Assembly: GCA_963837175.1 (NCBI GenBank)
Contig: CAWIMJ010000009.1
Span: 1 to 64,000, forward strand
Source of the DNA: an uncultured Nitrososphaeraceae archaeon
GTDB taxonomy: Archaea; Thermoproteota; Nitrososphaeria; Nitrososphaerales; Nitrososphaeraceae
Direction of reading: 5' to 3'
DNA: 64,000 nucleotides
Shown here: piece after piece, positions 1 to 61,924 of the stretch
How the letters are laid out: every line of letters begins with the position of its first letter
Numbering within the stretch: the stretch's first letter is position 1
Translations under genes and position numbers: made by a program
Notes under the pieces: model-generated
The model's database searches: none
Seen by the model: only the letters and a program-made list of their open reading frames with translations
What the model was told of the DNA's origin: nothing

Positions 1-76
1 CGCTGGCCCGCTCGCTGGCGAATGAGCCGGGCCCGATCGGCAGCTCAACCGTGGCGTGATACAAACGGCTGACGGT

Positions 77-1494
77 ATGCGTCGGCTCTTGCTGCTTGTC
101 GTGCTGACCTGGCCGGTGCCGGCCGCCGCGTGGAACTTCCGCGAACACACCAGATGGGTGAGGAGTCCTACGCGGCCGCGTGCGCGCAGGTCGCGCAGGA
201 ACAGAAGTTCGACGGGTCGAAAGAGGTGTGCGAGGCGGCGACCGATCCCGTGCGCGTGCGCTGGTGCCTGGCGTGCCGGGTCTACAGCCCGGCGCTGTAC
301 GGGCAATCGGTCGCGATCGCGGGCGACAAGGTCGGAACACCCGAGGCGCTGATGTCGATCGCCGGGCAGCGCTCGGCGACCAGCCTCGCGGACTATGCGT
401 TCCTGGCGCTGGTCAACACGGCGCACTTCCACCCCAACTCCCCGCGCAACTGGCGCACCTACCACAATCGCGCGCTGGTCGCGGCGGCATCGAAACACGA
501 CGGCGGAATGATGGCGGAGAACTTCGAGAAGGCGTTCTACACGTCCGCGTTCGCCGATCATTTCCTGCAGGACGCGTTCGCCGCCGGGCACGCCGGGTTC
601 AGCCGCGCGTCGTCCAGCGCGGGAGCGTCCAAGGCGTTCCACGACATCTGGAACAACGCCGGCCGGCTGGTGAAGGCGCCGACCGGCAGCTGCTGGCTGC
701 AGTTCGGCGACAACAAGTGGGCGCAAACGGCGGCGGTCGGCCGCGCGCACCTGCAGACCGCCGCGCAATCATCGGTCTACGACGTGCTGACGACGTTCGT
801 GACCGAGCGGCGGGACGGCACGCGCGAGGTGAAGCCCACCTACTTCATGCCCATCGCCACCACGACGGACACGCTGCCGCGGGGGATGCTGGCGACCGAG
901 GGCGCCGGCGACGTCGAAGACACGTCGAAGCCGACCGAGCAGATCACCCAGCTGTCCGTCGTCCAGCAGGCGAAGCAGCAGGCCTGTGAACGGGAGACGG
1001 TGCCGATTGCCGGCATGAGCAACGCCGCCGAGCTGTCCGCCGGCTTCAACTACTGGGGCCGGTTCACGATCGACAGCACCACCCAGTATCTGGCGGCCGA
1101 CGTGACGTTCAACCACCTGCTGAAGGTCCCGCTGGCGTTCGACCTCGGCGTCAGCCCGCTGGGCGCGGTCCAGCGAGATGACAACGTGCGCTTCGCCGCG
1201 GGCGGGTTCGTCGGCCTGCTGACGCCGCCGCTGTATCTGATCCACGGCCTGTGGCGCAACGAGCTCGGCGCGCAGGCGATGGCGTACGTCATCGCGCAGG
1301 ATCCGGTGACCTACGGCGTCTACGCGAGCGCCTTCCTGCGCACCAGCCTGGAGGTGTCGGACACCATCGTCCGGCTGCAGGCGGGACCGACGTACGACCC
1401 GCGCAACCAGGTGTGGGGCGCGACGGTCGCCGCCGGCTTCGAGCTGCCCGGCCTGCGCTGGGTGCGCGGCGGCGGCTCGATCGGCACGCGCTAG
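77..1494 (+). CDS. Secreted Zn-dependent phospholipase C / P1 nuclease-fold protein with C-terminal beta-barrel-like domain; 1-bp frameshift near 148
   Basis: Signal peptide MRRLLLLVVLTWPVPAAA-WNFREH lies in one frame and QMGEESYAAAC continues in the 130..1494 frame. Motifs NTAHF, ADHFLQDAFAAGH and FHDIWN match the downstream paralog. Confidence 0.65.
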
Positions 1495-1613
1495 CCGCAC
1501 TTCCGCGCGAAGCGCGGAGGGCGGCTATCCGAAACAACAATCGTCGTAAGGCGCTGCCGCAATCGGCGGCCCGGGGCGCCACATCCGCCCACGCGGCACA
1601 ACTCTTGAGAGCT

Positions 1614-2963
1614 GTGTCGGCGCTGCGCATCGGGCCATGCGTCGTCGCTGCCGTGGCGATGCTGATGCCGGCGACAGCGGCGGGCTGGGGGACGCTGGAG
1701 CACCAGCAGATCGGAAGCGTGGCGTACACGCAGGCGTGCGCGGAGCTCACGGCGGCGGCGGCGGCGATGAAGTCACCCGCGCCGGGGATCGCTACGCGCC
1801 TGGAGATCGCGTGTGGCCGCAACGGCGCGACGACGGCCGACATCTACGGCGACGCGACGGCGATCGCGGGCGACTTCCTCGGCGATCCGTCCGAGTTCAT
1901 GTCGCAGGCGGGCGCATGGCGGTTCAAGAGCAAGCGGAGCTATTACCTGCTGGCGCTGGAGAACAGCGCCCACTTCAACCCGATGTCGACGCAGTCGTGG
2001 GCCGAGTACCACAGCAAGGCGATCGACGAGGCGCTGGCCGGCGCGCGCGCGACCGGCGGGCTGGAGATGGTTCGTCAGTTTCAGCTCGCGCTTCAGGAGA
2101 GCGCGTTTGCCGATCACTTCCTGCAGGACTCGTTCGCCGCCGGGCACATGGGATTCAACCGGACCGCGTCCAGCGCCGCCGCGTCCAAATCGTTTCACGA
2201 CGCGTGGAACGACCGCGGGCGGGTGGTTAGCGACCGCAACGGCGACCGCTGGGTGACGTTCGGCGACGGATGGCTCAAGCGCCCCGAAAACGAAGGTGGG
2301 CACCGCCACGTACAGAACGCCGCGACCATGTCGGTGCGCAACGTGCTGCGCGCGTTCGTGTTCGGCGAGCGCGCCCCCGAGGAGGAGCTGGCGTTGTGGC
2401 GCGCCCTGCCGTTCACCATCCAGGCGCCGGAGATGCACGTCGGCGTCGTCGAGCTGTTCCAGCGCAAGGACGAGCTCGATGAACGCCAGCTGGTCCCGCT
2501 GCTCAAGACGATCCGGCCGGTGCGCAAGGACACCGTGTTCACCGCGCGCGTCTGGTCGGCGGCGCCGTTTTCGGAGACCGACGACGACCTGACCGCGGTG
2601 GTCGGCGGCTTCGAGCTCGCGGTGCCGCGCATGCCGGCGCAGACCTACCTGGGCGCGGGGGGGACGGTGCGCGAGCCGGGGGGCTCGCACTCGCTGGTGG
2701 TGGATACGGGATTGCTGTTCCCGCTCGGCCTCAGCTTCAGCGGCCTCATCAGCCACCAGCTCAACACGACGGTCTCCTGGTTGTTCCTGAACGGCGTGGC
2801 GACGGTGATTCACGCCGAGTACCAGATGAACATCGAGCTCGGTGACGTGCTCATCAGCCTTCACGGCGGCCTGGCCGAGTTCGTGCCCGACCCGCGCACC
2901 GGTTGGTACACCGCGTTCGGCATCGGCTACACGTTCAGCGCCGCCGGCGGCGGAACGCTGTAA
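1614..2963 (+). CDS. Secreted Zn-dependent phospholipase C-like protein, paralog of the upstream gene
   Basis: Signal peptide ends in ATAAG-WGTLEH. Motifs NSAHF, ADHFLQDSFAAGH and FHDAWN, then alternating beta-strand C-terminus (GWYTAFGIGYTF). Start uncertain (GTG 1614 or ATG about 1659). Confidence 0.7.
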   Translation: MSALRIGPCVVAAVAMLMPATAAGWGTLEHQQIGSVAYTQACAELTAAAAAMKSPAPGIATRLEIACGRNGATTADIYGDATAIAGDFLGDPSEFMSQAGAWRFKSKRSYYLLALENSAHFNPMSTQSWAEYHSKAIDEALAGARATGGLEMVRQFQLALQESAFADHFLQDSFAAGHMGFNRTASSAAASKSFHDAWNDRGRVVSDRNGDRWVTFGDGWLKRPENEGGHRHVQNAATMSVRNVLRAFVFGERAPEEELALWRALPFTIQAPEMHVGVVELFQRKDELDERQLVPLLKTIRPVRKDTVFTARVWSAAPFSETDDDLTAVVGGFELAVPRMPAQTYLGAGGTVREPGGSHSLVVDTGLLFPLGLSFSGLISHQLNTTVSWLFLNGVATVIHAEYQMNIELGDVLISLHGGLAEFVPDPRTGWYTAFGIGYTFSAAGGGTL

Positions 2964-3132
2964 GGACATCAGCAGCTGTCTCCCCGCCTTCGCCGGGAGA
3001 GGTGCAGATTCACCAGCGCAGCGTTCAATTTTGCGGGCCCGAGATCCGTCAGAGACGGTAGGCGGCTGCTCGACGCGATTTAGCTCAAGCACGTCGGGGG
3101 GCCGCCGATGACCGGACACCTAGGAGGAACGC

Positions 3133-4113
3133 ATGCGTACGCGCGACGGGTTTGTGACGCTGGCTGCGATCGTGGGCACGCTGGCCGTCGCGCCCGACGC
3201 GGGCGCCCAGGACAGCGCGCGTGGCGGCTGGCGCGGGCGCACCGCCGTGGGCGCGCCGGTTCCGCCGCCGCCGCTCCCGACGGGGACGGGGCGCCTGCGC
3301 AACGCCGCGCGCAACATGTGCCTGGACGTCGCCGGCTGGGCGGCGCAGGGGAACCGCGACGTGCTGCTGTGGGACTGCAACGACGACCCCGACCAGGTCT
3401 GGTCGTTCGCGCCCGGCGGCGAGCTGCGCGACGCGCTGACCGGCGAGTGCCTGGACGTCGCCGGCTACGACGGCGGCAAGGGCGCGGACGTCGGCACCTA
3501 CCGCTGCGAGGCGATGGACGACCAGCGCTGGTTCCTGGCGAACCGCCCCAACGGCCGGTTCGAGCTTCGCAGCGTCAAGCGCGGGCTGTGCCTGGATGTC
3601 AGCGGCCGCGCCGGCAAGCGCGGCGACAACGTCCTGTTGTGGGCGTGCGACGGCGGCGCGGATCAGGCCTGGACGTGGGAGCCCTATGCGACGCCCCAGC
3701 AGCGCCAGCGCCCGGTGCGCCACATGCGCGAGCCGCAGCCCAGCCCCGAGCTCACCATGCCCCCGCCGCCGCCCCCGCTGCCCGGCCCGCCACCGCGCGA
3801 TAACGCGCGCCGGCAGGCCCGCGCGATGGACGACGACGACTTCCGCCGGCTGGTCGTCGCGGTCAGGAACGAAGGCTTCGCTGACAACAAGCTCGCGGTC
3901 ATCGAGTCCGCTTCGGCCCGCAACTACTTCCGCGTCGGCCAGCTCAAAACGCTGCTCGGCGAGCTCACGTACTCGGCGACGAAGCTCCACGCCGTGTATC
4001 TGATCGGGCCGCGCCTGGTCGATCTCGAAAATACGTTCGCGGTCTACGACTCGTTCAGCCACACCGCGGACAAGGAACAGGCCGAGCTGATCCTGCGCCG
4101 CAGCACCTACTAG
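3133..4113 (+). CDS. Secreted ricin-B (beta-trefoil) lectin protein with Pro-rich linker and DUF4476-like C-terminal domain
   Basis: AGGAGG RBS, signal peptide, three CLDVxG...QxW repeats, PPPPPP linker, C-terminal F..DNKL...KL..v.l...D.EN segment. Confidence 0.8.
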   Translation: MRTRDGFVTLAAIVGTLAVAPDAGAQDSARGGWRGRTAVGAPVPPPPLPTGTGRLRNAARNMCLDVAGWAAQGNRDVLLWDCNDDPDQVWSFAPGGELRDALTGECLDVAGYDGGKGADVGTYRCEAMDDQRWFLANRPNGRFELRSVKRGLCLDVSGRAGKRGDNVLLWACDGGADQAWTWEPYATPQQRQRPVRHMREPQPSPELTMPPPPPPLPGPPPRDNARRQARAMDDDDFRRLVVAVRNEGFADNKLAVIESASARNYFRVGQLKTLLGELTYSATKLHAVYLIGPRLVDLENTFAVYDSFSHTADKEQAELILRRSTY

Positions 4114-5496
4114 CCGGGCGGGTTCTCGCCCGGGCGGGCGTTCGTCGGCGAGCTGGCCCAGCGTCGGGCCGCCGCCGTTGAGCGCGGCGCCGCCGCGCGC
4201 GGACAGCGCGGCGCGCGCCCCCGGCGGGAAGCCGTCGGCGGCCTCGCGGCGCACGTCCTCCAGCGCGGGATCGCGCTCGACGGCGTCGATGACCGCCGCG
4301 AACGCCGTCTGGTCGGGATCGGGCCGCAGCGAAAAGCCGCCGCCGCCCCGCTGCTCCACCAGCAGGCCGCGATCCACCAGCCGCACGCAGAGATCGCGCA
4401 CCAGCTGCGGCGGCAGGCGCAGCTCGCGCGCCAGATCGTCGTCGGACAGCGGCGCGTGCGCGCCATCGCCTGACCGCGCCACCCGCGCCGCGCGCAGCAC
4501 GATCGCCGCGCTCGCCTGGCGCTCGCCGTCGAGGTCGAGATGAAACGCGCGCGCGCCGTGCACCAGCACCACGTCGATGTGGTGGGCCACCGCGATCTCG
4601 GCGCAGATCAGCAGCGTGTACCAGGACGAGAACACCCACAGCAGGAAGACGGGGAAGGCGGCGAACCCGCCCCCGACCACGCCCGCCTTCGACACGCCGA
4701 TCTGAAGGTTGGCGTACGCCCAGAACACGACGGGCAACGCCAGCGCCGCCAGCGCGCCCCCGACGGCGGCCGACCCGAACGGGATGCGGGCGCGCACGGC
4801 CGACCAGTAGAAGATGGTGACCGCCAGCCAGAGCAGGCCCAGCACCATGACCACGCCCAGCGCGATCTCGAACCCCGGGATCGCGCCCAGCGTCTGGTAG
4901 ATGCGGTTGCCGATCGGCTGCCGTACGGCCGTGACCAGCACGCCCGACACCGCGAGCGCCGCCGGCGCCATCAGCAGCAGCGCGACGTAGCCGATCGCGC
5001 GCGAGAAGCGCGGCGTCTGCTGCCCCGATCCCGCGATGGTGTGCAGCGCCCGCTCCGTGAAGCTGAACATCTTGGTCGCGACGTAGAGCAAGGTGACCAG
5101 GCCGACGATGCCCGTGGCCTGGCTCGCGTGCTGCACGGCACCGAGCATCTCGCGCAGCGCCGCGTGCAGCACCTGGTTGCCGGTGATGATCTGCGGGTTG
5201 TCCGGCAGCTCGGCGTTGATCACGGGCAGGTGGTCGAGCAGCTTGAGCGCCCACAACACCACCACCAGCATCGGGATGATGGAGAACACGGTGAAGAACG
5301 TCAGCGCCGCCGCCAGCAGCGCCAGCCGGTGCATGACGATGCCGCGGACAACCAGGATCGCGATGCGGAACACGCGTACCGCCAGCGCCCGCGGGCCGCG
5401 CAGGGCGGCGCGATCGCGCGCCCACACCGAACGCGCGGCCGCCGACACCGCGCGATGCACCGGCGCGACGCCCGGGATCCGCTTCAACCAGGACAT
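4110..5496 (-). CDS. YihY/virulence factor BrkB family membrane protein with C-terminal Rrf2-like winged helix
   Basis: AAALTFFTVFSIIP, multiple TMs, FPVFLLWVFSSWYTLLICAEIA, then DDLARELRLPPQLVRDLCVRLVDRGLL. The true end is probably the TAG at 4110 via a frameshift. Confidence 0.8.
4114..4133. terminator. GC hairpin between convergent genes
   Basis: CCGGGCG-ggttct-CGCCCGG directly after the TAG at 4113; no U-tract. Confidence 0.35.
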
Positions 5497-5610
5497 GTCA
5501 CGGACCGCGTCGAAGCTGCGGCCTGACTTTGAGCCGTAACCGCCCCGTAGCCCGAATCAGACAATTCCTTGCTGGTCCGGGTGCGGGTACGACCCCATGG
5601 TGTCGCGACC

Positions 5611-6021
5611 ATGTACGATCAAATGTTCGACGCGTATCGCAAGGCATCGGAGTCCTGGCTGCAGGCACAACAGGACATGTTCAAACAGGGAGGGCAGTCG
5701 TGGATGTCGTCGCCGTCAAACGCGGCCGGCGGCGGCCCGGACTGGAATCGAGCCCTCCAGAAGCGCTATCTCGAGCTGGCAGTCGAGATCCTGAACCGCC
5801 AGCGCGAATCGCTCGACACGATCTACCGGTCGGCGATCCATTTGATGGAGCAGACCTCCAAGATCTCCGAAGCGAAGTCGCCGGAGGAATTTCGCGGCCT
5901 GGTCGAAAACGCGTGGCGCGAGTGGTTCGAGAGCATCAAGAGCCAGTCCGAGAGCCAGTTCCGCGACGCGCAGACCTGGGCGGGGAAGTCGCTGGAGCTG
6001 GTCAAGGGCGCGCAGGCCTAG
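5611..6021 (+). CDS. Phasin/PhaE-like amphipathic helical protein
   Basis: MYDQMFDAYRKASESWLQAQQDMFKQ; Q/E/W-rich helical protein directly upstream of a patatin. Confidence 0.5.
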   Translation: MYDQMFDAYRKASESWLQAQQDMFKQGGQSWMSSPSNAAGGGPDWNRALQKRYLELAVEILNRQRESLDTIYRSAIHLMEQTSKISEAKSPEEFRGLVENAWREWFESIKSQSESQFRDAQTWAGKSLELVKGAQA

Positions 6022-6030
6022 GGGCGGACC

Positions 6031-7034
6031 ATGAGCAACGGCGAACGGAGCCGGGTCGCGATCGCGTGCCAGGGCGGCGGCAGCCACACGGCGTTCACGG
6101 CCGGCGTCCTCCAGGGGCTGATGGCGAGCCTGCCGGACGACGTCGACATCATCGCGCTGACGGGAACATCGGGGGGCGCGATCTGCGCGTCGCTCGCCTG
6201 GGAAGGGTTCGTCCGCAACGACGCGACGCTGGCGATCAAGAAGCTCGGGAAGTTCTGGGAGTCGATGTCGGCGCGCGAGCCGCTGGATCAGATCGTCAAT
6301 CAGGCGATGCTGAGCTCCCTCAGCTTGCGCGACCTCATGATCATGCCGAGGTGAGCCCCTACAACCTCCCGACCTGGGGCGAGGACCACTTCCGCAGCAT
6401 GCTGAACGCGTTCTTCGACTTCGAAGAGCTGAGGCAGCTCGCGCGCAAACCGGGCGCGCCGCTGCTGCACATCGGCGCGGTCGAGGTCCTGAGCGGACAC
6501 TTCGAGCTGTTCACGGGAGAAGAGCTGTGCGCCGAATGCCTGCTCGCCTCGGCGGCGATCCCGGAGATGTTTCGGGCGGTCACCGTGCCCGGGCGTGGCG
6601 TGTACTGGGACGGGCTGTTCTCGCAGAACCCCCCAATTCACGACCTTTACGATCTCCGCATCGACGAGCTGTGGCTGATCCAGATCAACTCGAGCACCTG
6701 CGCGCGCGTGCCGACCGAGACGCACGAGATCCTCGACCGGCGCAACGCGCTGTCCGGCAACCTGTCGATGGAGCAGGAGCTCGCGTTCATCGACACCCTC
6801 AACCGGGCCATCAACAATGGCCGGCTCAAGGACCCGAACTTCCGCCCCATCCAGGTCTCGCGCATCTCGCTGGATCGCGAGCTCGACAGCCGGTCGAAGA
6901 TGGATCGTCGGCCCGCGTTCATCGAGGAGCTACGCGAGTACGGCAAGACCAAGTGCCGCTGGTTCCTCAAGGAGCGCGGGGCGAAGCCCCCCTTCGTGGC
7001 GCAGTCACAACAACAGCCAACAACCGCCGTTTGA
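6031..7034 (+). CDS. Patatin-like phospholipase/esterase; 1-bp frameshift near 6345
   Basis: QGGGSHTAF and GTSGG (nucleophile) in the 6031 frame; ASAAIP and WDGLF in the second frame; junction reads MP/EVSPY. Confidence 0.85.
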
Positions 7035-18297: not shown

Positions 18298-18585
18298 CTA
18301 GAGGGGAGTCATCTTATCTATTAAGCGGGCATTTGTAATCTGTCCATTCTTCTCCATTACAAGGAGATCGACAGTATATTGAATTCCATCAATTAGAAAT
18401 GTAACTTGAACATCCCAAGAATCTCGTCTGTCTTCTGTTGGAAGTCCTCCACCTGCAACCAATTGGTCGGAAATATATGGAAGCATTTCTCTAATTTGCA
18501 AGTTCTGAAAATCCTGGCCATACAGGCTTTCTATAGCTTTTCTTGCAGCTGCCTCGACATCGCTTCTTGTTTTGACCGGTTTCAT
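18298..18585 (-). CDS. Hypothetical 95-aa protein (PepSY-like alpha/beta pattern)
   Basis: Clean ORF with WDVQVTF...YTVDLLVMEKNGQIT. Confidence 0.65.
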   Translation of the reverse strand: MKPVKTRSDVEAAARKAIESLYGQDFQNLQIREMLPYISDQLVAGGGLPTEDRRDSWDVQVTFLIDGIQYTVDLLVMEKNGQITNARLIDKMTPL

Positions 18586-18872: not shown

Positions 18873-20582
18873 ATGATGGAGTTCTTGAAACAAATGAGGC
18901 TTTTTGGAGATGATGTTCGACGGAGTCGTGGTAATCAAGCACGTAGATATAATCTCCTTGCCGCCATGCTAATAGCAGAAGTTGTAAAAAGCTTCCTAGG
19001 CCCTCGAGGAATGGAGAAAATTTTCATTGATATCTTGGGCGAAATTACGATAACGAAGGACGGGGCAACCTTCTTGCGTAAGATAGATGTGGAGCATCCT
19101 GCTGCAAAGGTTCTGATTGAGGCATCTAACGCTGTTGACAATGAGGTAGGCGATGGTACGACCTCGGTTATAGTTCTTGCAGGCGCATTAGTGAAGAGAG
19201 CTGATGAACTGTTGGACCTCGGATTCGCACCTACTGTTATCGCAGACGGCTATTCTGACGCCCTAGTGTTATCTCTGGATCTTTTGAGTAATCTATCCCA
19301 GCGAAGTTCTAATTCCGATCGCCAAATTATGCTATATTTAGCTCAGACTTGTTTGAACTCAAAGATGGTTTCTTGGCTTGGAATATCAGACATCGTGGCC
19401 AATATAGTAGTAGATGCTATTGTTATGTTATCAGATTTTCCGAATAATAGTGTGGAGACTGACGATATAAAAATAGAAGAGAAAATTGGAGACCCTTTTG
19501 AAACCAAGCTAATTCACGGTATGGTAATTGATAAGACTATCGACAGTTCAGCAATGCCAAGAACTATTAGCGATGCAAAAATACTCCTAATTGATCTGGA
19601 ACTAGAAGACAAGGGCACAAGAATTGATGCTGAAATTCGAGTCAATTCCCCCAGCGAGATCCAAGCTTTTTCCCAAGGTATGTCAGATAAGCTCAGAAAT
19701 AAGATTCAAAAGATAATTAGATCGGGAGCAAACGTTGTTATTTCTAGAAAGGGGATCAGTTTGCTTGCACAAAATCTTTTAGCTGAGTCAAAAATCATTT
19801 CTCTAAAAAGAGTAAAAGAAAATGATATGCATTGGATAGAAAGAGCTACTGGTGCAAAAATCACAAATGACTTGAGTATTGATTCTCTGAGCTCATATTT
19901 AGGATATGCAGGATATGTACACGAGTCACCTGTAGGACAGGATAAGATGGTATTCATTGAGGAATGTACCAATCCGAAATCTGTCACAATTTTGCTACGA
20001 TCAAGATCTAAATCGACTTTGGACGAATATCATCGTTCAGTGTTAGATGCCATCTTCGTGCTACGAAACTTTGTAGTAAGACCTTTTACTGTGTATGGTG
20101 GTGGATCATTTGAATCCATTATCGCAAACAGAATAAGGAAATTAGCAAATGCAACTAGCGGAAGAAAACAAATTGTTTTAGAGAAGTTTGCAGGAGCACT
20201 CGAAGAAATACCATTGACTATTGCCAGGAATGCCGGCATGGACGAGATGGAAACAACTGCTGAATTGCGAACAAGAATATCCAAACAAGTTGACGGCAAG
20301 ATAGGATGGTATGGAATAAACGCCATAGAAAGAAGGGTAGACGATATGCGTTTGAAGAGAGTATTAGAGTCTGTAGTTGTAAAAGAGCAAATTTTGAAAA
20401 CAGCTGTGGAAGTTACCTCTCTTCTAATTAGAGTTGACGATGTCTTGATGATGAAGCCTGTAATGAACACTCACACTCACACTGATGGAACTAAACATTC
20501 TCATTCTGGAGGGGATAAGAAACATGACCATTACTTTGACAAATTGGGAAAGCAACAGCGTCCCACGCATCACTATTATTAG
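18873..20582 (+). CDS. Divergent group II chaperonin (thermosome-like) subunit with His-rich C-terminal tail
   Basis: GPRGMEK, ITKDGAT, GDGTTS, RSVLDA, GGGSFE, IRVDDVL; tail HTHTDGTKHSHSGGDKKHDHY...THHYY. Confidence 0.9.
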   Translation: MMEFLKQMRLFGDDVRRSRGNQARRYNLLAAMLIAEVVKSFLGPRGMEKIFIDILGEITITKDGATFLRKIDVEHPAAKVLIEASNAVDNEVGDGTTSVIVLAGALVKRADELLDLGFAPTVIADGYSDALVLSLDLLSNLSQRSSNSDRQIMLYLAQTCLNSKMVSWLGISDIVANIVVDAIVMLSDFPNNSVETDDIKIEEKIGDPFETKLIHGMVIDKTIDSSAMPRTISDAKILLIDLELEDKGTRIDAEIRVNSPSEIQAFSQGMSDKLRNKIQKIIRSGANVVISRKGISLLAQNLLAESKIISLKRVKENDMHWIERATGAKITNDLSIDSLSSYLGYAGYVHESPVGQDKMVFIEECTNPKSVTILLRSRSKSTLDEYHRSVLDAIFVLRNFVVRPFTVYGGGSFESIIANRIRKLANATSGRKQIVLEKFAGALEEIPLTIARNAGMDEMETTAELRTRISKQVDGKIGWYGINAIERRVDDMRLKRVLESVVVKEQILKTAVEVTSLLIRVDDVLMMKPVMNTHTHTDGTKHSHSGGDKKHDHYFDKLGKQQRPTHHYY

Positions 20583-20835
20583 TCAAGTTTTCTAGAAGCA
20601 ACTGTCACAGTTTAGGATCCAAAAACCTCAGACAATTGTATCTAAGCATGAATTAATTTTTCTGGGAATGGAATTCGTGCTGAAAGGTTTAAGTAGGTGA
20701 CTTCGTCGGATACTACCTTAGGAAAATTTTTTGTTAGTTTAGTGCTTCGCATCGTTAGCTAACAAATATTCATCTCGTCATTATGGCTTTAGTACATTTA
20801 TTCCATGTCCTCGTTCGGCAGAAGCGCTCAGCTGT

Positions 20836-21219
20836 TTAGCTTAAGACATAGCGCGGGATTTTAATGGGCTCCTGAAGAGTTATGACGTATTGCTGTACTT
20901 TATCTAGTTCTACGTGAAAAACAATTTTTCTGATAGTTTCAGGGACTCCTATCATTACGCTATAAGGTGACAAAAGTGCTTTTGCCCCTCCTTCAATATG
21001 TTCGATAAGATTTTGTGCACGCAACTGTGAGACTACGTAATTGCAATATAATGCCAAGCATTCGTTAATATTGATTCTTAGGCCCATTACAAGCTTCTCT
21101 TTTATTTTATTCACCGAAGGAAGAAATATGGTATCGTAAGATTCATCTGAATATTCAAAGACCCTGAAAAAGGGTGGGGTGTCTTTTTCCCCAGTCACTG
21201 TTGCTTTGACACGGATCAA
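20836..21219 (-). CDS. Urease gamma-subunit-like protein (orphan)
   Basis: GLRININECLAL...LR...IEGGAKALLSPYSVMIGVPETIRKI...VITLQEPI parallels UreA GLKLNYPE..AL...R.G...VMEGVPEMI...VTVHNPI; TTGA overlap with the upstream gene. Confidence 0.75.
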   Translation of the reverse strand: MIRVKATVTGEKDTPPFFRVFEYSDESYDTIFLPSVNKIKEKLVMGLRININECLALYCNYVVSQLRAQNLIEHIEGGAKALLSPYSVMIGVPETIRKIVFHVELDKVQQYVITLQEPIKIPRYVLS

Positions 21220-22379
21220 CGTTTTCGTTTTGGAGATTTAGCTTTTGGGGCCTTTCCGAAGTCATACGTGTGTCCGGTGCCTCTATAGAACTTGGGTCTA
21301 ACAGGGTTCCCTTCTACTTCACCTTTCTTTGTCAGAGAAAGACCCGCTAACAGTTCGACAATTAATCTATTAGCAAGACCAGAAGTAATACCTCCGTTGT
21401 ACGAATTTTGATCGCTTACATCATAGTTAGGAGCAACTTCCACCAGATCGAAAGCGAACTTGTCTGGATCAAACGAAGTGGAAAGTAATCGCATTAGCCT
21501 CATTCCTTCACGAGAAGTAAGACCGTTAGGTTCTGGTTCTCCTGTCCCAGGTGCAAAAGCTGGATCAAAAGTGTCTATGTCCCAGCTAATGTATACAGCA
21601 TCAACATTATCGTTAGCCCTGTCTGCAGCCTCTTTTGCTATCTGATCAATTCCTAGCTCCTCTACATCTAGCATGGTAAACCACTGAAAGTCCTGATCAG
21701 CCATCCATTTGTAGAGATCTGGACCAGGCCAATAGCCTCTAGGACCTATCAAAGTATAGTTCTTTCCTTTAAGGCAACCCAGTTCCATTATTCGTCGGAT
21801 ATGTGCTCCATGGTCGTATTTAAAACCGCAGAGGCCTTGTGGAGCGCAGTCTGCGTGTGTATCAATATGAATCATTCCAATATTTTTGTACTTCTTGGCG
21901 AATGCTCTGACATTAGCAAACGTAATTGAATGATCGCCTCCCAGCATGACAGGGATGCCGTCTACATCTAGGACTTCTTTTACCTTGTTAGTCATTCTAG
22001 TATGAGATTCAATGACATCTCCAGGTGAGACAACTACATCACCATAGTCGACTGTTCGAAATACTCCGAAAGGATCGACTCCAGTTTCTATGTTAAAATG
22101 CTCATAGGGAGGTGATGGTACTGTTGAAGCCGCTCTAATGGCCCGGGGTCCATATCTGGCGCCAGGTCTAATTGTGGTTCCAAAGTCAAACGGCTCGCCA
22201 ATGATTGCAACATCTGGTTTTACCTTCTTTAACTCTTGCAAAGTTCTGATCCAAGGTAGTTTCAAAAAAGTAGGAATACCTACAAAAATCGGTTCATCGT
22301 TTCCCTTGTAAGAGTCCCCGTAAAATTCCATTCCCATTGATAAATCAGATTTAGATAAACATACCGATTTCTTAAACAT
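21216..22379 (-). CDS. Ureohydrolase (agmatinase/guanidino-amidinohydrolase family)
   Basis: RPGARYGP, GGDHSIT, DTHAD, SWDIDTFDPAFAPGTGEPEPNG, DLVEVAPNYD. Confidence 0.92.
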   Translation of the reverse strand: MFKKSVCLSKSDLSMGMEFYGDSYKGNDEPIFVGIPTFLKLPWIRTLQELKKVKPDVAIIGEPFDFGTTIRPGARYGPRAIRAASTVPSPPYEHFNIETGVDPFGVFRTVDYGDVVVSPGDVIESHTRMTNKVKEVLDVDGIPVMLGGDHSITFANVRAFAKKYKNIGMIHIDTHADCAPQGLCGFKYDHGAHIRRIMELGCLKGKNYTLIGPRGYWPGPDLYKWMADQDFQWFTMLDVEELGIDQIAKEAADRANDNVDAVYISWDIDTFDPAFAPGTGEPEPNGLTSREGMRLMRLLSTSFDPDKFAFDLVEVAPNYDVSDQNSYNGGITSGLANRLIVELLAGLSLTKKGEVEGNPVRPKFYRGTGHTYDFGKAPKAKSPKRKR

Positions 22380-22525
22380 TACTAAGTATATTACATCTCG
22401 AAGCTAACAAATTATCATGTGTATCAATTGCTTCTATCTTCATCATCTACTCGCAACGTAGTAGCTTTGTCCTCACTATAGATCACTTCAACATCGGTGT
22501 GTTTGCCGAGGTTTAGTTTTGATTC

Positions 22526-24121
22526 TTATTTTTGGTTTTTCATTCTTACATCAATTGGATTAATCCACTTCGAAACATCCGTCCCTGCTACTACGTCTTC
22601 TTCCGATGGAATTAGGTAAATTACTTCATGCCTTGGTGGACTCTTCTTGTATGTAGCTAGACTTACTATTACAAATAGTATAAACGATACGAGTGGTGGA
22701 ATCATTGTATCTAGACCAAGGTAAGGAAAAAGCGGGCTGTCAGGAGGGGCTGTTGACCACACAAAGTACAATATCAATCGTAGCAAAGATCCAACAATGA
22801 TTGACACAACAGCGGCTTGATTAGTCGATTTCTTCCAAAATGTACCCATAACCAAAGGCACAAAACAACCTGCGAAGGCAATATCAAACGCCAATATCAG
22901 ATAAGCGCCGGGCCTAGGAATAATAGCACCCAGTGCGAAAGCAGCAAAGAACATTGGAATGATCAAAAGTCTTGTCGCGGTTAGTAACTGTCTGTCGTTT
23001 AGAGTAAAGCCTTTTCCCTTTAGTTTCCCAATGAGATTTCGCTGCAGTATGTTCCTTGACATTACACTTGCTATAGCGAGTGTTCCCCCATTTGCAGTGG
23101 ACATTCCGCAACTCACAGTGCTAACTAGCATTAGTATTCCTATAAATTCAGGTACATGTTTTATCGCCACTACAGGATACAAGGTAAATGGATCCTTAAT
23201 ATTCGGTTCAAGTGTATGTCCAACAATGCCAATCATTGTTGTAGGGACTAGAATTAGCAATGTAATACCAGCAGCAAGGTAGCAGCTCTTTGCTGCCGTT
23301 CGGCCACTATTGGCTGAAAACACCCGTTCCATAAAATCCAAGGCTACCAAATCACCTAGACCTAGCGACAAGATTCCAGCCCAATTGATTAAAGCACCGT
23401 TTTTAATATCAAACAAACCTGACATATCCATGAAATTTGGAGGGACATTTGCAATTATTGTTTCTAGTCCACCTGGAATGGGTGACCACGGACCAATGAA
23501 GTATATAAACCCTAACCAAAATCCTGCTACTGCTAAATAAATGTGGAAAATATCTGTATATGCACAGGAAAAGAGTCCACCAAAGTAAGTATATAACAAT
23601 ATTATTGCAGTCGATATGAGCATAGCCCAGACCAAAGGTATGCTCAGTACCACGGATAAAATGTAACCACTTGCACCAAGGTTACCAGCTACCAGAACAA
23701 TAAAGCTTACCGACATTATCACGCCAGACAGGACTTCCGCGGTATTTCCATATCGCCGAAAGTAAAAATCTGCAAGCGTAATCATATTCATTCTATTGTA
23801 TATTCTGCCAAATAACGCACCTGTAAGAACTAAGCAAATCGCCAAACCTAAAGGAATAACAGCACCACCCCAAAAGCCAAAGTCATAGGTCAATGATACA
23901 TTGCCAAGTGAAGCGTTACCATCAACCGCTTCAGAAACTAGCATGGTGCCGACAAAGAACAAAGGTAAACTCTTACCTGCAACAATAAAGCGCTTGCTGC
24001 TTTTCTTAACGAATTTGCCTGATAATATTCCAATGACAGCAGTTGCAATAACAAATGCCATTACCACAACGGGGTAACTAATCGGAACGTCGATGGCGGC
24101 CATCCTAATACCGAGTGTCAT
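22526..24121 (-). CDS. Sodium:solute symporter (SSS) family transporter
   Basis: FIVAGKSLP, TLADFYFRRYG, YTYFGGL..AYTD, about 13 TMs. Confidence 0.9.
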   Translation of the reverse strand: MTLGIRMAAIDVPISYPVVVMAFVIATAVIGILSGKFVKKSSKRFIVAGKSLPLFFVGTMLVSEAVDGNASLGNVSLTYDFGFWGGAVIPLGLAICLVLTGALFGRIYNRMNMITLADFYFRRYGNTAEVLSGVIMSVSFIVLVAGNLGASGYILSVVLSIPLVWAMLISTAIILLYTYFGGLFSCAYTDIFHIYLAVAGFWLGFIYFIGPWSPIPGGLETIIANVPPNFMDMSGLFDIKNGALINWAGILSLGLGDLVALDFMERVFSANSGRTAAKSCYLAAGITLLILVPTTMIGIVGHTLEPNIKDPFTLYPVVAIKHVPEFIGILMLVSTVSCGMSTANGGTLAIASVMSRNILQRNLIGKLKGKGFTLNDRQLLTATRLLIIPMFFAAFALGAIIPRPGAYLILAFDIAFAGCFVPLVMGTFWKKSTNQAAVVSIIVGSLLRLILYFVWSTAPPDSPLFPYLGLDTMIPPLVSFILFVIVSLATYKKSPPRHEVIYLIPSEEDVVAGTDVSKWINPIDVRMKNQK

Positions 24122-24298: not shown

Positions 24299-24820
24299 CT
24301 ACCTGACAGCCAACACAGGACAGTGAGCATGACTAATGACTTTGCTAGCGACACTTCCCATTAGGAATTTTTCTATTCCGGTCATACCTTTTGTCCCAAT
24401 TATGATAAGATCCGCATCTGCTTGCTTAGCATAGTTTAGTATACCTTCGGCGGCAGACGAAGCGTTGGTAATTAGATCAGTCTTCATTTCAACTCCTTTT
24501 CCCTGTGCAAGATCCTTTGCTTCATTTAATAACTTCGCATACTCTTTTTGCATCGCCCTTTCATACATTTCAGCTCTGGTTCCTGGATAATAGCTTAATA
24601 GATCCCAGACAATTCCTAGAGAGGCCCTATCGATAACGTGAATTGACGTAAGACTTGATCCAAATGCCTTTGCCAACATAGTTCCGGTTTCTATGACCTT
24701 TTGTCGATATCCGGACTTATCAATAGCAGTCAAGATCTTCTTGAAAGTGTCTTTGCTCTCGGTCACTCCAGTAAATTCACTAGTCATTATCTCAAATAAC
24801 TTCTTGTCCCTATACATCAT
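24299..24820 (-). CDS. Universal stress protein (UspA family)
   Basis: FKKILTAID, DLIIIGTKGMTGIEKFLMGSVASKVISHAHCPVLAVR. Confidence 0.93.
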   Translation of the reverse strand: MMYRDKKLFEIMTSEFTGVTESKDTFKKILTAIDKSGYRQKVIETGTMLAKAFGSSLTSIHVIDRASLGIVWDLLSYYPGTRAEMYERAMQKEYAKLLNEAKDLAQGKGVEMKTDLITNASSAAEGILNYAKQADADLIIIGTKGMTGIEKFLMGSVASKVISHAHCPVLAVR

Positions 24821-24890: not shown

Positions 24891-25403
24891 TCACAATTTT
24901 CTTAATTTTGTGTAAAGAGTGGGGTCCAATTTGCGAGCCTTATCAAAACAATCTTGAGCCAATTTGATTTTACCTATTATCGCAAGGGCTCTTCCCTTGT
25001 TATACCAAGCCTTAGCATAGCTATTCTTGATCTTTATGGCTTTATCAAAACTTTCGATGGCTTCTTCGAACCTCTTAATTTTCATTTGTGTTAATCCTTG
25101 ATTGTGCCATGTGATTTCACTGTTTGGGTTTATAGCGATTGCTTTTGAAAAAGATTTCAAAGCCTCTTCAAGTTTACCTTGCTTAGTGAGAATCAAACCT
25201 TTATCTCCCCATGCGCAATCATTTTGGGGATTTATCTCCAAAGCTTTATCAAAATAATTTATGGCACCGACAAGATTGTTTGCGTTAGCCATATCTTCAC
25301 CGCGAATAATGTATTCGTTTGAAAGCTCTTTTTTTGAATGAAAAACAATAGGGGTATTTTTTTTATCCTTCTTTATCCATGACAGTATCCCCATAGCTAA
25401 CAA
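24891..25403 (-). CDS. Tetratricopeptide repeat protein
   Basis: Repeated AW.NKG..L..LG...EA...F.KA..INP. Confidence 0.9.
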   Translation of the reverse strand: MLAMGILSWIKKDKKNTPIVFHSKKELSNEYIIRGEDMANANNLVGAINYFDKALEINPQNDCAWGDKGLILTKQGKLEEALKSFSKAIAINPNSEITWHNQGLTQMKIKRFEEAIESFDKAIKIKNSYAKAWYNKGRALAIIGKIKLAQDCFDKARKLDPTLYTKLRKL

Positions 25404-60161: not shown

Positions 60162-60274
60162 TATTCAGCTATTATCCTGGATCTTTAACCATTGTCTGTG
60201 TATTAGTCATAAGACTAGAAAATTTGATAGTAGTGATATTTTGATTACCTGTAAATAAAGGTAATGTTTTGGAG

Positions 60275-61582
60275 CCTAGTCCACCAAGGCTTCCAATTCC
60301 GCCAGGTCCTCCTATGATGACCTATTGTTTAGTAGCGTGGATCCCATGGGCTACATCCCAAGGCCGCCAAGGCCACCAATTCCGCCAAGGCCACCTAATC
60401 CGCCAGGTCCACCAAGTCCGCCAATTCCGCCTAATTCCACCAAGGCCACCTAATCCGCCAATTCCGCCAGGTCCGCCTAATCCGCCAATACCGCCAAGGC
60501 TACCAATTCCACCAAGGCCACCGAATCCGCCTAATCCGCCAGGTCCACCGAATCCGCCTAATCCGCCAATTCCTCCGGGTCCGCCTAATCCGCCAATACC
60601 GCCAAGGCTACCAATTCCACCAAGGCCACCGAATCCGCCTAATCCGCCAGGTCCACCGAATCCACCTAATCCGCCAATTCCTCCGGGTCCGCCTAATCCG
60701 CCAATACCGCCAAGGCTACCAATTCCACCAAGGCCACCGAATCCGCCTAATCCGCCAGGTCCACCGAATCCACCTAATCCGCCAATTCCGCCAGGTCCAC
60801 CGAATCCACCTAATCCGCCAATTCCTCCGAGGTCCACCTAATCCCCGGTCCACCGAATCCGCCAATACCGCCAAGGCTACCAATTCCACCAAGGCCACCG
60901 AATCCGCCTAATCCGCCAGGTCCACCGAATCCACCTAATCCGCCAATTCCTCCGGGTCCACCTAATCCGCCAATACCGCCAAGGCTACCAATTCCACCAA
61001 GGCCACCTGAATCCGCCTAATCCGCCAATTCCTCCGGGTCCGCCGAATCCGCCAATTCCGCCAGGGTCTACCAATTCCGCCAAGGCTACCTAATCCGCCA
61101 ATTCCCCGAGTCCACCTAATCCGCCTAATTCGCCAATTCCTCCGGGTCCGCCTAATCCGCCAGGTCCACCGAATCCGCCTAATTCCGCCAGGTCCGCCTA
61201 ATCCGCCAGGTCCGCCTAATCCGCCAGGTCCGCCTAATCCGCCAGGTCCACCAAGGCCACCTAATCCACCAAGGCCACCTAATCCTCCAATTCCGCCAAT
61301 TCCACCTAATCCGCCAGGTCCGCCTAATCCGCCAGGTCCGCCTAATCCGCCAGGTCCACCGAATCCGCCAGGTCCGCCTAATCCGCCAATTCCTCCGGGT
61401 CCGCCTAATCCGCCAGGTCCACCTAATCCGCCAGGTCCACCTAATCCGCCAGGTCCACCAAGGCTACCAATTCCGCGAGGTCCTAGGTTCGCATTGGCTA
61501 CTTGTAAAGTAGCAGTTGCACTTAACAGTCCAATTACTGATGCCAATAAGACACTAAAAACACCGATTTTTTTTGTATTCAT
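60275..61582 (-). CDS. Secreted glycine-rich (GGX)n protein; several frameshifts in the repeat array
   Basis: Signal peptide ending ANA, then more than 100 GGP/GGL/GGI/GGF triplets; 108-bp higher-order repeat. Confidence 0.8.
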
Positions 61583-61924
61583 TAGCAGTATCATTACGTC
61601 TTATTATATAAGAATTGTTTAACTATATTCCACATAGTATTCACATTGAATATTATTCAATAAAAAATTCCTGTTGTGCCTTTTTCACATCCTAGTCATT
61701 GAAGGAATCATCCTTTCAATAACATCCTTTTCAAATGATGAGTGCAATCTATCTACTAGTCCCAAAGAATTACATACTTCAAGACGCCATGTCTCTCCAT
61801 ATCAAAATAAATAATATGTTTACCATAGAATTTAATCAAAGCCGCATAAATGTCTCTCAACGAGTAGTTAATACAGCCCTATTCAGCAGACTATAAAATC
61901 TGAAACACTTTATAGAATAAATAG

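What the first reader, a model, noticed from the sequence alone, without database searches (positions are those of the whole stretch)
18873..24121. Candidate archaeal guanidino-compound utilisation module: SSS transporter, ureohydrolase, orphan urease-gamma and His-tailed chaperonin
Seen: a co-oriented SSS gene, ureohydrolase and UreA-like gene, the last two overlapping by 4 bp, plus a convergent atypical thermosome. Established: ureohydrolases release urea from guanidino compounds using two metal ions, and some (GdmH, metformin hydrolase) use Ni and need metallochaperones. This enzyme has GYWP and PGTGEPEP, unlike classic agmatinase (PGTGTP) or GdmH (PGTGWPEP). Inference: an uptake and hydrolysis system giving an ammonia oxidiser a new organic N source, with its own accessory subunit and metal-loading chaperonin in place of HypAB/UreEFG.
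Basis: partly seen in the sequence, partly recalled or inferred. Interest (0 to 1): 0.85.

Follow-up and report, generated by a model that had tools for sequence, protein, structure and literature searches.

The report
Urease-linked ureohydrolase module with His-tailed chaperonin
A soil ammonia-oxidising archaeon carries a tightly co-inherited gene set (transporter, very conserved arginase-type enzyme, urease-gamma look-alike, chaperonin with a histidine-rich tail) that occurs almost only in genomes that also have urease, which points to an unrecognised organic nitrogen compound being turned into urea and then ammonia.

Summary
At 18873-24121 lie a thermosome with a His-rich tail (+), and on the minus strand an SSS transporter, an arginase-family ureohydrolase and a urease-gamma-like gene that overlaps the ureohydrolase stop by 4 bp.

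- In 401 genomes of the class, the ureohydrolase (77-95% identical across families) is in 118 and the His-tail thermosome in 113. They share 112.
- 112 of the 118 also have urease, while 64 urease genomes lack the module.
- The gamma-like gene follows the ureohydrolase in 30 of 30 loci.
- The SSS lies within 10 kb in 21 of 22 loci, and a related SSS flanks the haloarchaeal sister enzyme.
- Five complete genomes without the enzyme lack the SSS, the tailed thermosome and a small conserved protein.
- In the one family-f5 locus read (that family has the enzyme but no tailed thermosome), the His-rich stretch sits on the enzyme's own C-terminus.
- A NicO-type permease and NikR sit in the module in other genomes.

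Best reading (about 0.6): an accessory, probably nickel-dependent, guanidino-compound uptake and hydrolysis system that feeds urea to urease.

Substrate, metal and subunit binding are not shown. I found no description of the module in the papers searched.

The parts
18298..18585 (-). Small conserved protein of unknown function (95 aa), transcribed divergently from the thermosome gene.
   Evidence: It has no Pfam or NCBIfam match. Homologues lie within 10 kb of the ureohydrolase in 21 of 22 loci. No match was found in 5 of 5 complete genomes that lack the ureohydrolase. The AlphaFold model (pLDDT 84) has one helix on a four-stranded sheet. It is cystatin/PepSY-like only weakly, with no PDB match at E<=0.001.
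18873..20582 (+). Group II chaperonin (thermosome) paralogue with a conserved His-rich C-terminal tail. The tail is encoded at about 20430-20579.
   Evidence: It matches PF00118 and NF041082. The tail motif H-x-H-x-DGT-x-H-x-H ... H-x-H ... QR..HHYY is conserved in 17 of 17 aligned orthologues from two families, with 11 invariant columns. A tail profile matches 113 of 401 genomes, and 112 of these have the ureohydrolase. The genome's two ordinary thermosomes are 45-46% identical and stop aligning at query residue 526.
20836..21219 (-). Urease-gamma-like protein (127 aa), translationally coupled to the ureohydrolase.
   Evidence: PF00547 scores 31.5 bits, far below the NCBIfam UreA equivalog cut-offs. 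The AlphaFold model (pLDDT 94) matches urease gamma chains at TM 0.77-0.81 on the target. An N-terminal beta-hairpin replaces the first helix of UreA. It lies directly downstream of the ureohydrolase in 30 of 30 loci. In 19 loci the spacing runs from a 4-base overlap to a 14-base gap. It is 29-49% identical across relatives.
21216..22379 (-). Arginase-family ureohydrolase of an uncharacterised clade with the signature PGTGEPEP.
   Evidence: PF00491 scores 265 bits, but the protein is below the curated agmatinase cut-offs. H150, D173, H175, D177, D267 and D269 are invariant in 36 sequences. The closest solved relatives are guanidinobutyrase 3nio (7e-50) and the guanidinases 9fek and 7esr (1e-48). 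It is 77-95% identical in 117 other genomes of three families.
22526..24121 (-). Sodium:solute symporter family transporter, co-oriented with the ureohydrolase and 146 bp upstream of it.
   Evidence: It matches PF00474 and is below all NCBIfam equivalog cut-offs. It is in 21 of 22 neighbourhoods. No match at E<=0.001 was found in 5 of 5 complete genomes without the ureohydrolase, 4 of which have urease. A 36%-identical SSS flanks the haloarchaeal sister enzyme.
24299..24820 (-). Universal stress protein, a recurrent neighbour.
   Evidence: It matches PF00582. Its cluster is present in 13 of 22 neighbourhoods.
24891..25403 (-). TPR-repeat protein, a recurrent neighbour.
   Evidence: It matches the TPR families. 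Its cluster is present in 19 of 22 neighbourhoods, mostly divergent from and adjacent to the ureohydrolase.

Best explanation
This is an accessory catabolic module of ammonia-oxidising archaea. My reading of how it works has four steps.
1. The SSS transporter takes up a guanidino compound whose identity is unknown.
2. The ureohydrolase hydrolyses it to urea plus an amine or amino acid. The enzyme belongs to a distinct clade near guanidinobutyrase and guanidinase, and is probably loaded with nickel.
3. The cell's urease then turns the urea into ammonia and CO2 for energy and nitrogen.
4. The enzyme is served by dedicated helpers. One is a urease-gamma-fold protein made from the same transcript, inferred to be a structural or accessory partner. 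The other is a thermosome paralogue whose conserved His-rich tails are inferred to hold metal where the enzyme is folded.

Shown here: gene identities, folds, intact metal-binding residues, co-inheritance, dependence on urease at the genome level, and migration of the His-rich segment. Inferred: substrate, metal, physical contacts and physiological use.
For: 1. Co-inheritance. The ureohydrolase is in 118 of 401 genomes and the His-tail thermosome in 113. They overlap in 112, with 6 enzyme only, 1 tail only (a 64-aa remnant) and 282 neither. Per-genus tallies match within genera with patchy presence: g2 5/15, g6 13/24, g13 8/24, g26 7/32 in both searches.
2. Nesting in urease genomes. 112 of the 118 have UreC. 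64 genomes have UreC without the module, and 219 have neither. So the thermosome follows the ureohydrolase, not urease.
3. Tight coupling of the gamma-like gene. It follows the ureohydrolase in 30 of 30 loci, at spacings from a 4-base overlap to a 14-base gap. It has a urease-gamma fold.
4. Transporter link. The SSS is within 10 kb in 21 of 22 loci. It is missing, with the tailed thermosome and the small protein, from 5 of 5 complete genomes without the enzyme. The haloarchaeal sister clade (51-54% identical) also sits beside a 36%-identical SSS on megaplasmids.
5. Metal. All six conserved metal-binding positions are invariant. A NicO-type permease with an H-x4-DH motif and a His-rich loop that resembles the thermosome tail follows the gamma-like gene in most loci of the second family. 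NikR lies between the gamma-like gene and the thermosome in two loci. All three family-f5 genomes have the enzyme but no tailed thermosome, and in the one f5 locus read the enzyme has its own His-rich C-terminal extension: 12 His in its last 70 residues against 0-2 in 21 others.
6. It is not the housekeeping agmatinase. Two other, agmatinase-like paralogues exist in this genome.
7. Contigs from four soil RNA libraries, each a separate study, lie on parts of the ureohydrolase, the thermosome, the small protein and the SSS. Two runs reach the UreA-like gene and two the Usp. One contig bridges the ureohydrolase/gamma-like junction. This is weak evidence, because DNA carry-over is not excluded.
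Against: No biochemical datum exists, and the substrate cannot be read from the sequence.
- The guanidinase determinant Trp is replaced by Glu. A published screen found no guanidine-degradation genes in AOA (PMC11410670, passage read).
- Six module genomes show no UreC (G238, G339, G347, G381, G389, G400). All are multi-contig assemblies, but two are rated 99% complete.
- This genome itself has no NicO-type gene detectable with the query used. So nickel supply in this organism is unexplained, and the metal could be Mn, Co or Zn.
- NicO and NikR could serve urease rather than this enzyme.
- Deoxyhypusine synthase genes lie next to or near the pair in several loci, which fits a polyamine role.
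- Relatives are not independent samples, so the counts overstate the number of independent events.
Confidence: 0.6

Rival explanations
1. Biosynthetic role. The ureohydrolase removes amidino groups from an agmatine-derived intermediate made by a deoxyhypusine-synthase homologue. That would be polyamine synthesis of the homospermidine type, or modification of aIF5A. Under this reading the urea is only a by-product.
For: Deoxyhypusine synthase genes lie directly next to the pair in L023, L030 and L035, beside its remnant in L007, and within 10 kb in L045, L046, L048 and L057. SpeY (a DHS homologue) together with a specific ureohydrolase makes homospermidine from agmatine in bacteria, and the authors ask whether archaea have agmatine-dependent DHS (PMC13625781, abstract and passages read).
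Against: The module is accessory, found in 118 of 401 genomes, and is nested in urease genomes. Polyamine synthesis would not need that. It comes with an importer. The genome has two other agmatinase-like genes. The enzyme is nearer to guanidinobutyrase and guanidinase than to SpeB-type enzymes. DHS is absent from the window's own neighbourhood.
Confidence: 0.12
2. Urea island. The SSS is a urea (or other) importer that serves urease. The ureohydrolase recycles an internal metabolite (arginine, agmatine, guanidine) to urea, so no external guanidino compound is used.
For: The module is nested in urease genomes. The canonical urease operon lies within 10 kb in 7 of 22 loci. [quoted passage not shown]
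Against: Four complete urease genomes without the module have no homologue of this SSS at E<=0.001, so urease does not need it. In many complete genomes the module is hundreds of kb from ureC: G012 at 823 kb against 316 kb, G082 at 2015 kb against 1158 kb. The haloarchaeal pair of SSS plus enzyme stands without urease genes in the 19 kb read.
Confidence: 0.15
3. Only the ureohydrolase and the gamma-like gene work together. The thermosome, SSS and other neighbours are linked by shared descent or by riding on one mobile island, without a common function.
For: Gene order and orientation differ between families. A ParB-like gene recurs in the neighbourhood. Some genera of the second family carry module proteins much closer to those of the window's family (ureohydrolase 91-93%, SSS up to 75%). 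That hints at transfer of the block.
Against: The neighbourhood persists although the order is shuffled. The tailed thermosome is lost and gained together with the enzyme within many genera. The His-rich segment moves onto the enzyme in the one family-f5 locus read, from the family that lacks the tailed thermosome.
Confidence: 0.08

Closest known systems
Guanidinobutyrase GbuA and guanidinopropionase GpuA of Pseudomonas aeruginosa (PDB 3nio, 3nip)
   Same: Same superfamily. GbuA is the best solved match (E 7e-50 over residues 25-329) and GpuA follows at 2.7e-44. The GGDHS, DxHxD and DxD metal motifs are shared.
   Different: The loop reads PGTGEPEP instead of PGTGTPE. There is an extra insertion (DVSD..SYNGGITS) and a C-terminal extension. 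Here the enzyme also comes with a gamma-like partner, a tailed chaperonin and an SSS importer.
Ni-dependent guanidinase GdmH (Synechocystis Sll1077, PDB 7esr/7oi1; Nitrospira inopinata enzyme 9fek) with HypA/HypB-type helpers
   Same: Nearly as close in sequence (E 1e-48). The Thr-Thr of the substrate loop is kept. Nickel-handling genes are associated, and the product urea feeds a nitrifier (PMC11410670, passages read).
   Different: The Trp that the paper names as a guanidine determinant is Glu here. The helpers are not HypA/HypB. They are a thermosome paralogue, a urease-gamma-fold protein and in many genomes a NicO-type permease. The paper's screen reported no guanidine genes in AOA.
Metformin hydrolase MfmAB/MetCaCb, a Ni-dependent heteromeric ureohydrolase (PDB 8snf, 8ryi)
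   Same: A ureohydrolase that needs nickel and a second, co-encoded subunit (PMC11271267 and PMC10927577: search listings and abstracts only). It is a sequence relative at E 6e-33.
   Different: There the partner is a second arginase-fold subunit. Here the co-encoded protein has a urease-gamma fold, and binding is not shown.
SpeY-associated bis(guanidino)homospermidine ureohydrolase
   Same: An arginase-family enzyme paired with a deoxyhypusine-synthase homologue (PMC13625781). DHS genes neighbour the pair in some AOA loci.
   Different: Those enzymes are SpeB-type and biosynthetic. This clade is accessory, tied to urease, and carries an importer.
Extra chaperonins already noted in AOA: the Hsp60 homologue inside urease loci (PMC5797428) and the 'additional thermosome' near an SSS and urease in a hadal MAG (PMC7265257)
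   Same: Both are dedicated group II chaperonin paralogues beside nitrogen-releasing hydrolases. The hadal-MAG gene is probably this same thermosome type, but I could not check its sequence.
   Different: The urease-locus Hsp60 homologue is a different, 27%-identical gene (C50:16215-17663). Neither term, agmatinase or ureohydrolase, occurs in the hadal-MAG paper, and agmatinase does not occur in the other (the only one of the two I searched there). The hadal paper read the extra thermosome as a pressure adaptation.
Helicobacter pylori HspA (GroES with a His/Cys-rich nickel-binding tail). Recalled, not checked here.
   Same: A chaperonin-system protein that carries a His-rich tail tied to the maturation of a nickel enzyme.
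   Different: That is a group I co-chaperonin serving urease. Here the tail is on a group II chaperonin subunit that follows a ureohydrolase.

Membership tests
Arginase/ureohydrolase superfamily (PF00491) | Profile match above the curated cut-off over the whole domain | tested here: met
   265.4 bits against a cut-off of 22, covering profile positions 2-279 of 280.
Arginase/ureohydrolase superfamily (PF00491) | Six His/Asp ligands of the binuclear metal site. The assignment of these positions to the ligands is recalled knowledge of the family. | tested here: met
   H150, D173, H175, D177, D267 and D269 are invariant in 36 aligned sequences.
Agmatinase SpeB (TIGR01230, NF002564) | Score above NCBI's curated cut-off | tested here: not met
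   155.8 against 174.3, and 199.7 against 302. Solved agmatinases score E 8e-36 or weaker, against 7e-50 for guanidinobutyrase.
Guanidinase GdmH | Thr97 and Trp305 of the Synechocystis enzyme, named as specificity determinants in PMC11410670 | tested here: not met
   The alignment to 7esr and 9fek shows the Thr-Thr kept but Glu at the Trp position: PGTGEPEP against PGTGWPEP.
Nickel-dependent ureohydrolases | Nickel in the active site and need of a delivery system | not testable with these tools
   Only context speaks for it: a NicO-type permease, NikR and His-rich segments.
Urease gamma subunit UreA (PF00547) | Profile match above cut-offs | tested here: inconclusive
   Pfam gives 31.5 bits against 23.9, covering only profile positions 21-99. 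The NCBIfam equivalogs give 25.9 against 123 and 20.9 against 82.3.
Urease gamma subunit UreA (PF00547) | Urease-gamma fold | tested here: met
   The model has pLDDT 94. The best PDB matches are all urease gamma chains, TM 0.77-0.81 on the target, probability 1.0.
Urease gamma subunit UreA (PF00547) | Encoded with ureB and ureC as part of urease | tested here: not met
   It follows a ureohydrolase in 30 of 30 loci. The true ureABC of this genome is on contig C50.
Thermosome (group II chaperonin) | Profile match above the curated cut-off | tested here: met
   NF041082 gives 510.7 against 450 and NF041083 gives 501.3 against 400. The older TIGR02339 is not reached (504 against 671).
Thermosome (group II chaperonin) | Housekeeping copy present in all relatives | tested here: not met
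   The tail profile is in 113 of 401 genomes only. Five genomes without the module have only 41-45%-identical thermosomes, and the match to them stops at query residues 526-532.
Sodium:solute symporter family (PF00474) | Profile match above cut-off; assignment to a named substrate subfamily | tested here: inconclusive
   Family membership is met (81.2 against 22.8). All equivalogs (PutP, PanF) are far below their cut-offs, so the substrate is unassigned.

The most novel reading that the evidence does not exclude
The tailed thermosome is a client-dedicated 'metallochaperonin'. Its ring of conserved His-rich tails would hold nickel inside the folding chamber and load the ureohydrolase there. That would be a way of maturing a metalloenzyme not known for group II chaperonins. 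The urease-gamma-fold protein would be a borrowed urease subunit that either completes the ureohydrolase oligomer or docks it onto urease, so that urea passes directly from one enzyme to the other. Together they would give about three in ten AOA genomes sampled a so far unknown organic energy and nitrogen source.
Probability: 0.3. Interest if true: 0.9.

Novelty: new variant of a known kind. Interest (0 to 1): 0.8.

Why it matters
Ammonia-oxidising archaea drive nitrification in soils and oceans. Their known substrates beyond ammonia are few (urea, cyanate).

A module present in 118 of 401 sampled genomes of the class, nested in urease carriers, would add a class of organic nitrogen compounds to what fuels nitrification. 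It would also define a trait that separates ecotypes within genera.

It offers three testable novelties in enzymology:
- a new ureohydrolase specificity;
- a urease-gamma fold reused outside urease;
- a group II chaperonin paralogue with a conserved metal-binding tail that tracks one client enzyme.

Tried and rejected
Complex prediction of ureohydrolase plus gamma-like protein, 1:1, using alignments A5 and A4. The tool returned 'no answer' with score 0.00. This says nothing either way about binding.

Fusion of the gamma-like gene with the NicO-type gene. It was suggested by long open frames in GC-rich genomes. I rejected it: the two are in different frames in L052 and L053, and a stop separates them in L055.

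My early impression that many module genomes lack urease. It rested on the gamma-like profile missing true UreA, including this genome's own. A direct UreC search overturned it.

Fold search of the small conserved protein. No PDB match at E<=0.001. The ESM Atlas gave only its own unnamed archaeal clusters and leads at 0.82.

Sigma-70 promoter and terminator scan. Counts were at or below those of shuffles, and the scan does not suit archaea.

Rfam scan of the window. No family reached its threshold.

The single-protein scan of genome contigs returned only 2 loci. The wider picture came from the genome search.

Parts of the stretch without RNA-library contigs are not evidence of silence.

Earlier-findings look-ups by place and by sequence were empty.

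E-values against PDB chains stand in for it.

Full report
WHAT IS THERE

The window holds exactly the four genes described:
- a group II chaperonin at 18873-20582 (+);
- on the minus strand, an SSS transporter at 22526-24121;
- an arginase-family ureohydrolase at 21216-22379;
- a 127-aa urease-gamma-like gene at 20836-21219.

The TTG start of the gamma-like gene overlaps the ureohydrolase TGA stop by four bases. Pfam and NCBIfam confirm the families.

The ureohydrolase stays below NCBI's agmatinase cut-offs. The gamma-like protein barely passes Pfam and fails the UreA equivalog models. The SSS fits no named substrate subfamily.

The genome (3.8 Mb, 58 contigs, 91% complete) has a normal ureA-ureB-ureC set with a urea transporter on another contig. 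It also has two further agmatinase-like genes. So the gamma-like gene is an extra, 19%-identical paralogue, and the ureohydrolase is not the only member of its family.

THE PAIR

A profile of the gamma-like protein finds full-length relatives in two families of the order. Source names of close relatives are Nitrososphaeraceae; a Nitrosopolaris MAG and a Nitrosotenuis MAG also carry it.

In the 30 best loci the ureohydrolase lies directly upstream in 30 of 30. In 19 loci read in detail the spacing runs from a 4-base overlap to a 14-base gap.

The two partners evolve very differently. The ureohydrolase is 81-95% identical to the window's across three families, while the gamma-like protein is 29-49% identical.

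An AlphaFold model of the gamma-like protein (pLDDT 94) has a urease-gamma fold, with a beta-hairpin in place of the first helix.

THE MODULE

Twenty-two neighbourhoods of about 20 kb were clustered: the window, the Nitrosopolaris locus and 20 loci from other genomes. A recurrent set appears whose order and orientation differ between families.

| Component | Loci with it, of 22 |
|---|---|
| Ureohydrolase (one further locus miscalled by my ORF picker in GC-rich DNA) | 21 |
| SSS | 21 |
| Small unknown protein (window 18298-18585) | 21 |
| TPR protein | 19 |
| Tailed thermosome | 19 |
| Unknown 173-aa protein | 15 |
| Usp | 13 |
| ParB-like protein | 11 |
| NicO-type permease | 9 |
| Canonical urease operon | 7 |

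NikR also occurs in three loci and deoxyhypusine synthase in several.

The thermosome tail is conserved across both families, with 11 invariant columns in 17 sequences. His residues are spaced as H-x-H-x-DGT-x-H-x-H and the end reads HHYY.

CO-OCCURRENCE

In one sample of 401 genomes of the class:
- The ureohydrolase (E<=1e-100) is in 118: 42 of 78 in the window's family, 72 of 223 in the second, 3 of 4 in a third, and 0 of 95 in 17 other families.
- A profile of the last 50 residues of the thermosome is in 113.
- The overlap is 112. Six genomes have the enzyme only, one has the tail only (a 64-residue remnant), and 282 have neither.
- Genus tallies match in genera where presence is patchy, so the two are gained and lost together.
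- UreC is in 176, and 112 of the 118 module genomes have it. 64 have urease without the module.

These counts include two genomes flagged as unpublished (G283, G365), both positive in all three searches. Without them the figures are 110 of 116 for both overlaps. Relatives are not independent, so I give counts and no probability.

Five complete genomes without the enzyme, four of them with urease, were searched. They have only ordinary thermosomes (41-45% identical, with the match ending at query residues 526-532). They have no homologue of this SSS at E<=0.001, and neither of the two small unknown proteins.

METAL

The six positions that bind the metal pair in this family are invariant.

In most loci of the second family a permease follows the gamma-like gene. 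It has the H-x4-DH motif of nickel/cobalt transporters and a His-rich loop that resembles the thermosome tail. Its Pfam NicO match is weak (29.3 against 27.7).

NikR, above the NCBIfam cut-off, lies between the gamma-like gene and the thermosome in two loci.

The most telling point concerns the third family. Its three sampled genomes have the enzyme but no tailed thermosome. In the one locus of that family that I read, the enzyme carries a His-rich C-terminal extension of its own, with 12 His in its last 70 residues against 0-2 in 21 other orthologues. Several 402-438-aa database relatives carry a similar extension. In the other two genomes only the longer open frames (435 and 440 aa) hint at the same.

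This ties the His-rich segment to the enzyme rather than to urease. The metal itself is not shown. This genome has no detectable NicO-type gene.

RELATIVES AND SUBSTRATE

The closest solved structures are guanidinobutyrase (7e-50), two guanidinases (about 1e-48), proclavaminate amidinohydrolase and guanidinopropionase. Agmatinases and metformin hydrolase follow at 8e-36 or weaker.

The clade shares PGTGEPEP, an insertion and a C-terminal extension with a sister group of 51-61% identity that includes haloarchaea. On two haloarchaeal megaplasmids the enzyme again sits beside an SSS that is 36% identical to the window's, with no gamma-like gene. On one of them a divergent chaperonin with a short His-containing tail and a Usp lie 5-8 kb away, beside a formamidase.

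The Thr-Thr of the guanidinase substrate loop is kept, but the Trp that PMC11410670 names as a guanidine determinant is Glu. That paper's screen found no guanidine genes in AOA. I cannot name the substrate. A small guanidino compound with a polar or cationic group near the guanidino carbon, or a guanidino acid, are the leading candidates by inference only.

EXPRESSION

Contigs from four soil RNA libraries of four studies, 95-100% identical, lie on parts of the ureohydrolase, the thermosome, the small protein and the SSS. Two runs reach the UreA-like gene and two the Usp. One contig bridges the ureohydrolase/gamma-like junction with more than 31 bases on each side. DNA carry-over cannot be excluded.

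LITERATURE

In six full-text searches I found no paper that describes this module.

Two papers touch it. PMC5797428 describes a different Hsp60 homologue inside AOA urease loci; this genome has it at C50:16215-17663. [quoted passage not shown] The words agmatinase and ureohydrolase do not occur in it.

PMC13625781 gives the main rival idea: a deoxyhypusine-synthase homologue plus a ureohydrolase that make homospermidine.

It is not independent evidence.

VERDICT

The four genes, plus at least a TPR protein, a Usp and a small alpha+beta protein, form a co-inherited accessory module.

The best-supported mechanism is uptake and hydrolysis of a guanidino compound to urea for urease, by a probably nickel-dependent enzyme with dedicated maturation helpers (confidence about 0.6). 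The polyamine reading and the 'urea island' reading remain open at lower odds.

Noticed in passing
window 1-7000: The first ~7 kb of the contig has 70% G+C against 31-41% for nearly all the rest, apart from the Gly-repeat stretch near 60-62 kb. It encodes bacterial-looking proteins: a BrkB-like membrane protein fused to an Rrf2-type regulator, and a weak patatin-like match. The window starts at base 1 of contig C9, so a chimeric assembly join or contamination is as likely as gene transfer. The genome's contamination estimate is 3.2%.
   Followed up: partly
window 60269-61594: Two adjacent minus-strand genes encode glycine-rich repeat proteins (GGLGGPGG-type units). One has an N-terminal signal-like segment. 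They cause the local jump to 49% G+C and the strong GC skew.
   Followed up: no
own genome, contig C50:16215-17663 (outside the window): A fourth, very divergent chaperonin gene (27% identical to the tailed thermosome) lies about 2.4 kb from the canonical ureA (C50:20043-20336). Equivalent genes lie beside ureC in G120 and G184. This matches the urease-locus Hsp60 homologue described in PMC5797428. AOA of this family thus have two different client-linked chaperonin paralogues.
   Followed up: partly
L007:6317-6777 (Nitrosotenuis MAG): Between two deoxyhypusine-synthase genes and a NicO-type gene lies a remnant. About 44 codons of the ureohydrolase N-terminus run into broken pieces of the gamma-like gene. 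It looks like a module decayed by deletion. G184 likewise has a NicO-type gene broken by stops next to its urease locus.
   Followed up: partly
L059:1-2818 (Haloarcula marismortui pNG700): A formamidase gene is followed by a divergent TCP-1/cpn60 chaperonin whose C-terminus also holds a short His-containing stretch. A Usp, an APC permease, an SSS and the sister ureohydrolase follow within 8 kb. Dedicated chaperonins beside amide or guanidine hydrolases may be a wider archaeal theme.
   Followed up: no
L038-L057, 173-aa protein (e.g. L042:16184-16705); not in the window: An unknown protein is conserved in 15 of 22 module neighbourhoods. It has no Pfam or NCBIfam match, was not found in five module-free genomes, and was not found in this genome. 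Its N-terminus looks like a ribbon-helix-helix DNA-binding start, by eye only, so it may be the module's regulator.
   Followed up: partly
window 24891-25403 and thermosome end 20568-20579: The module's TPR protein and the invariant extreme C-terminus of the thermosome (..HHYY) recall TPR co-chaperones that grip chaperone C-termini. This is an idea only and was not tested.
   Followed up: no
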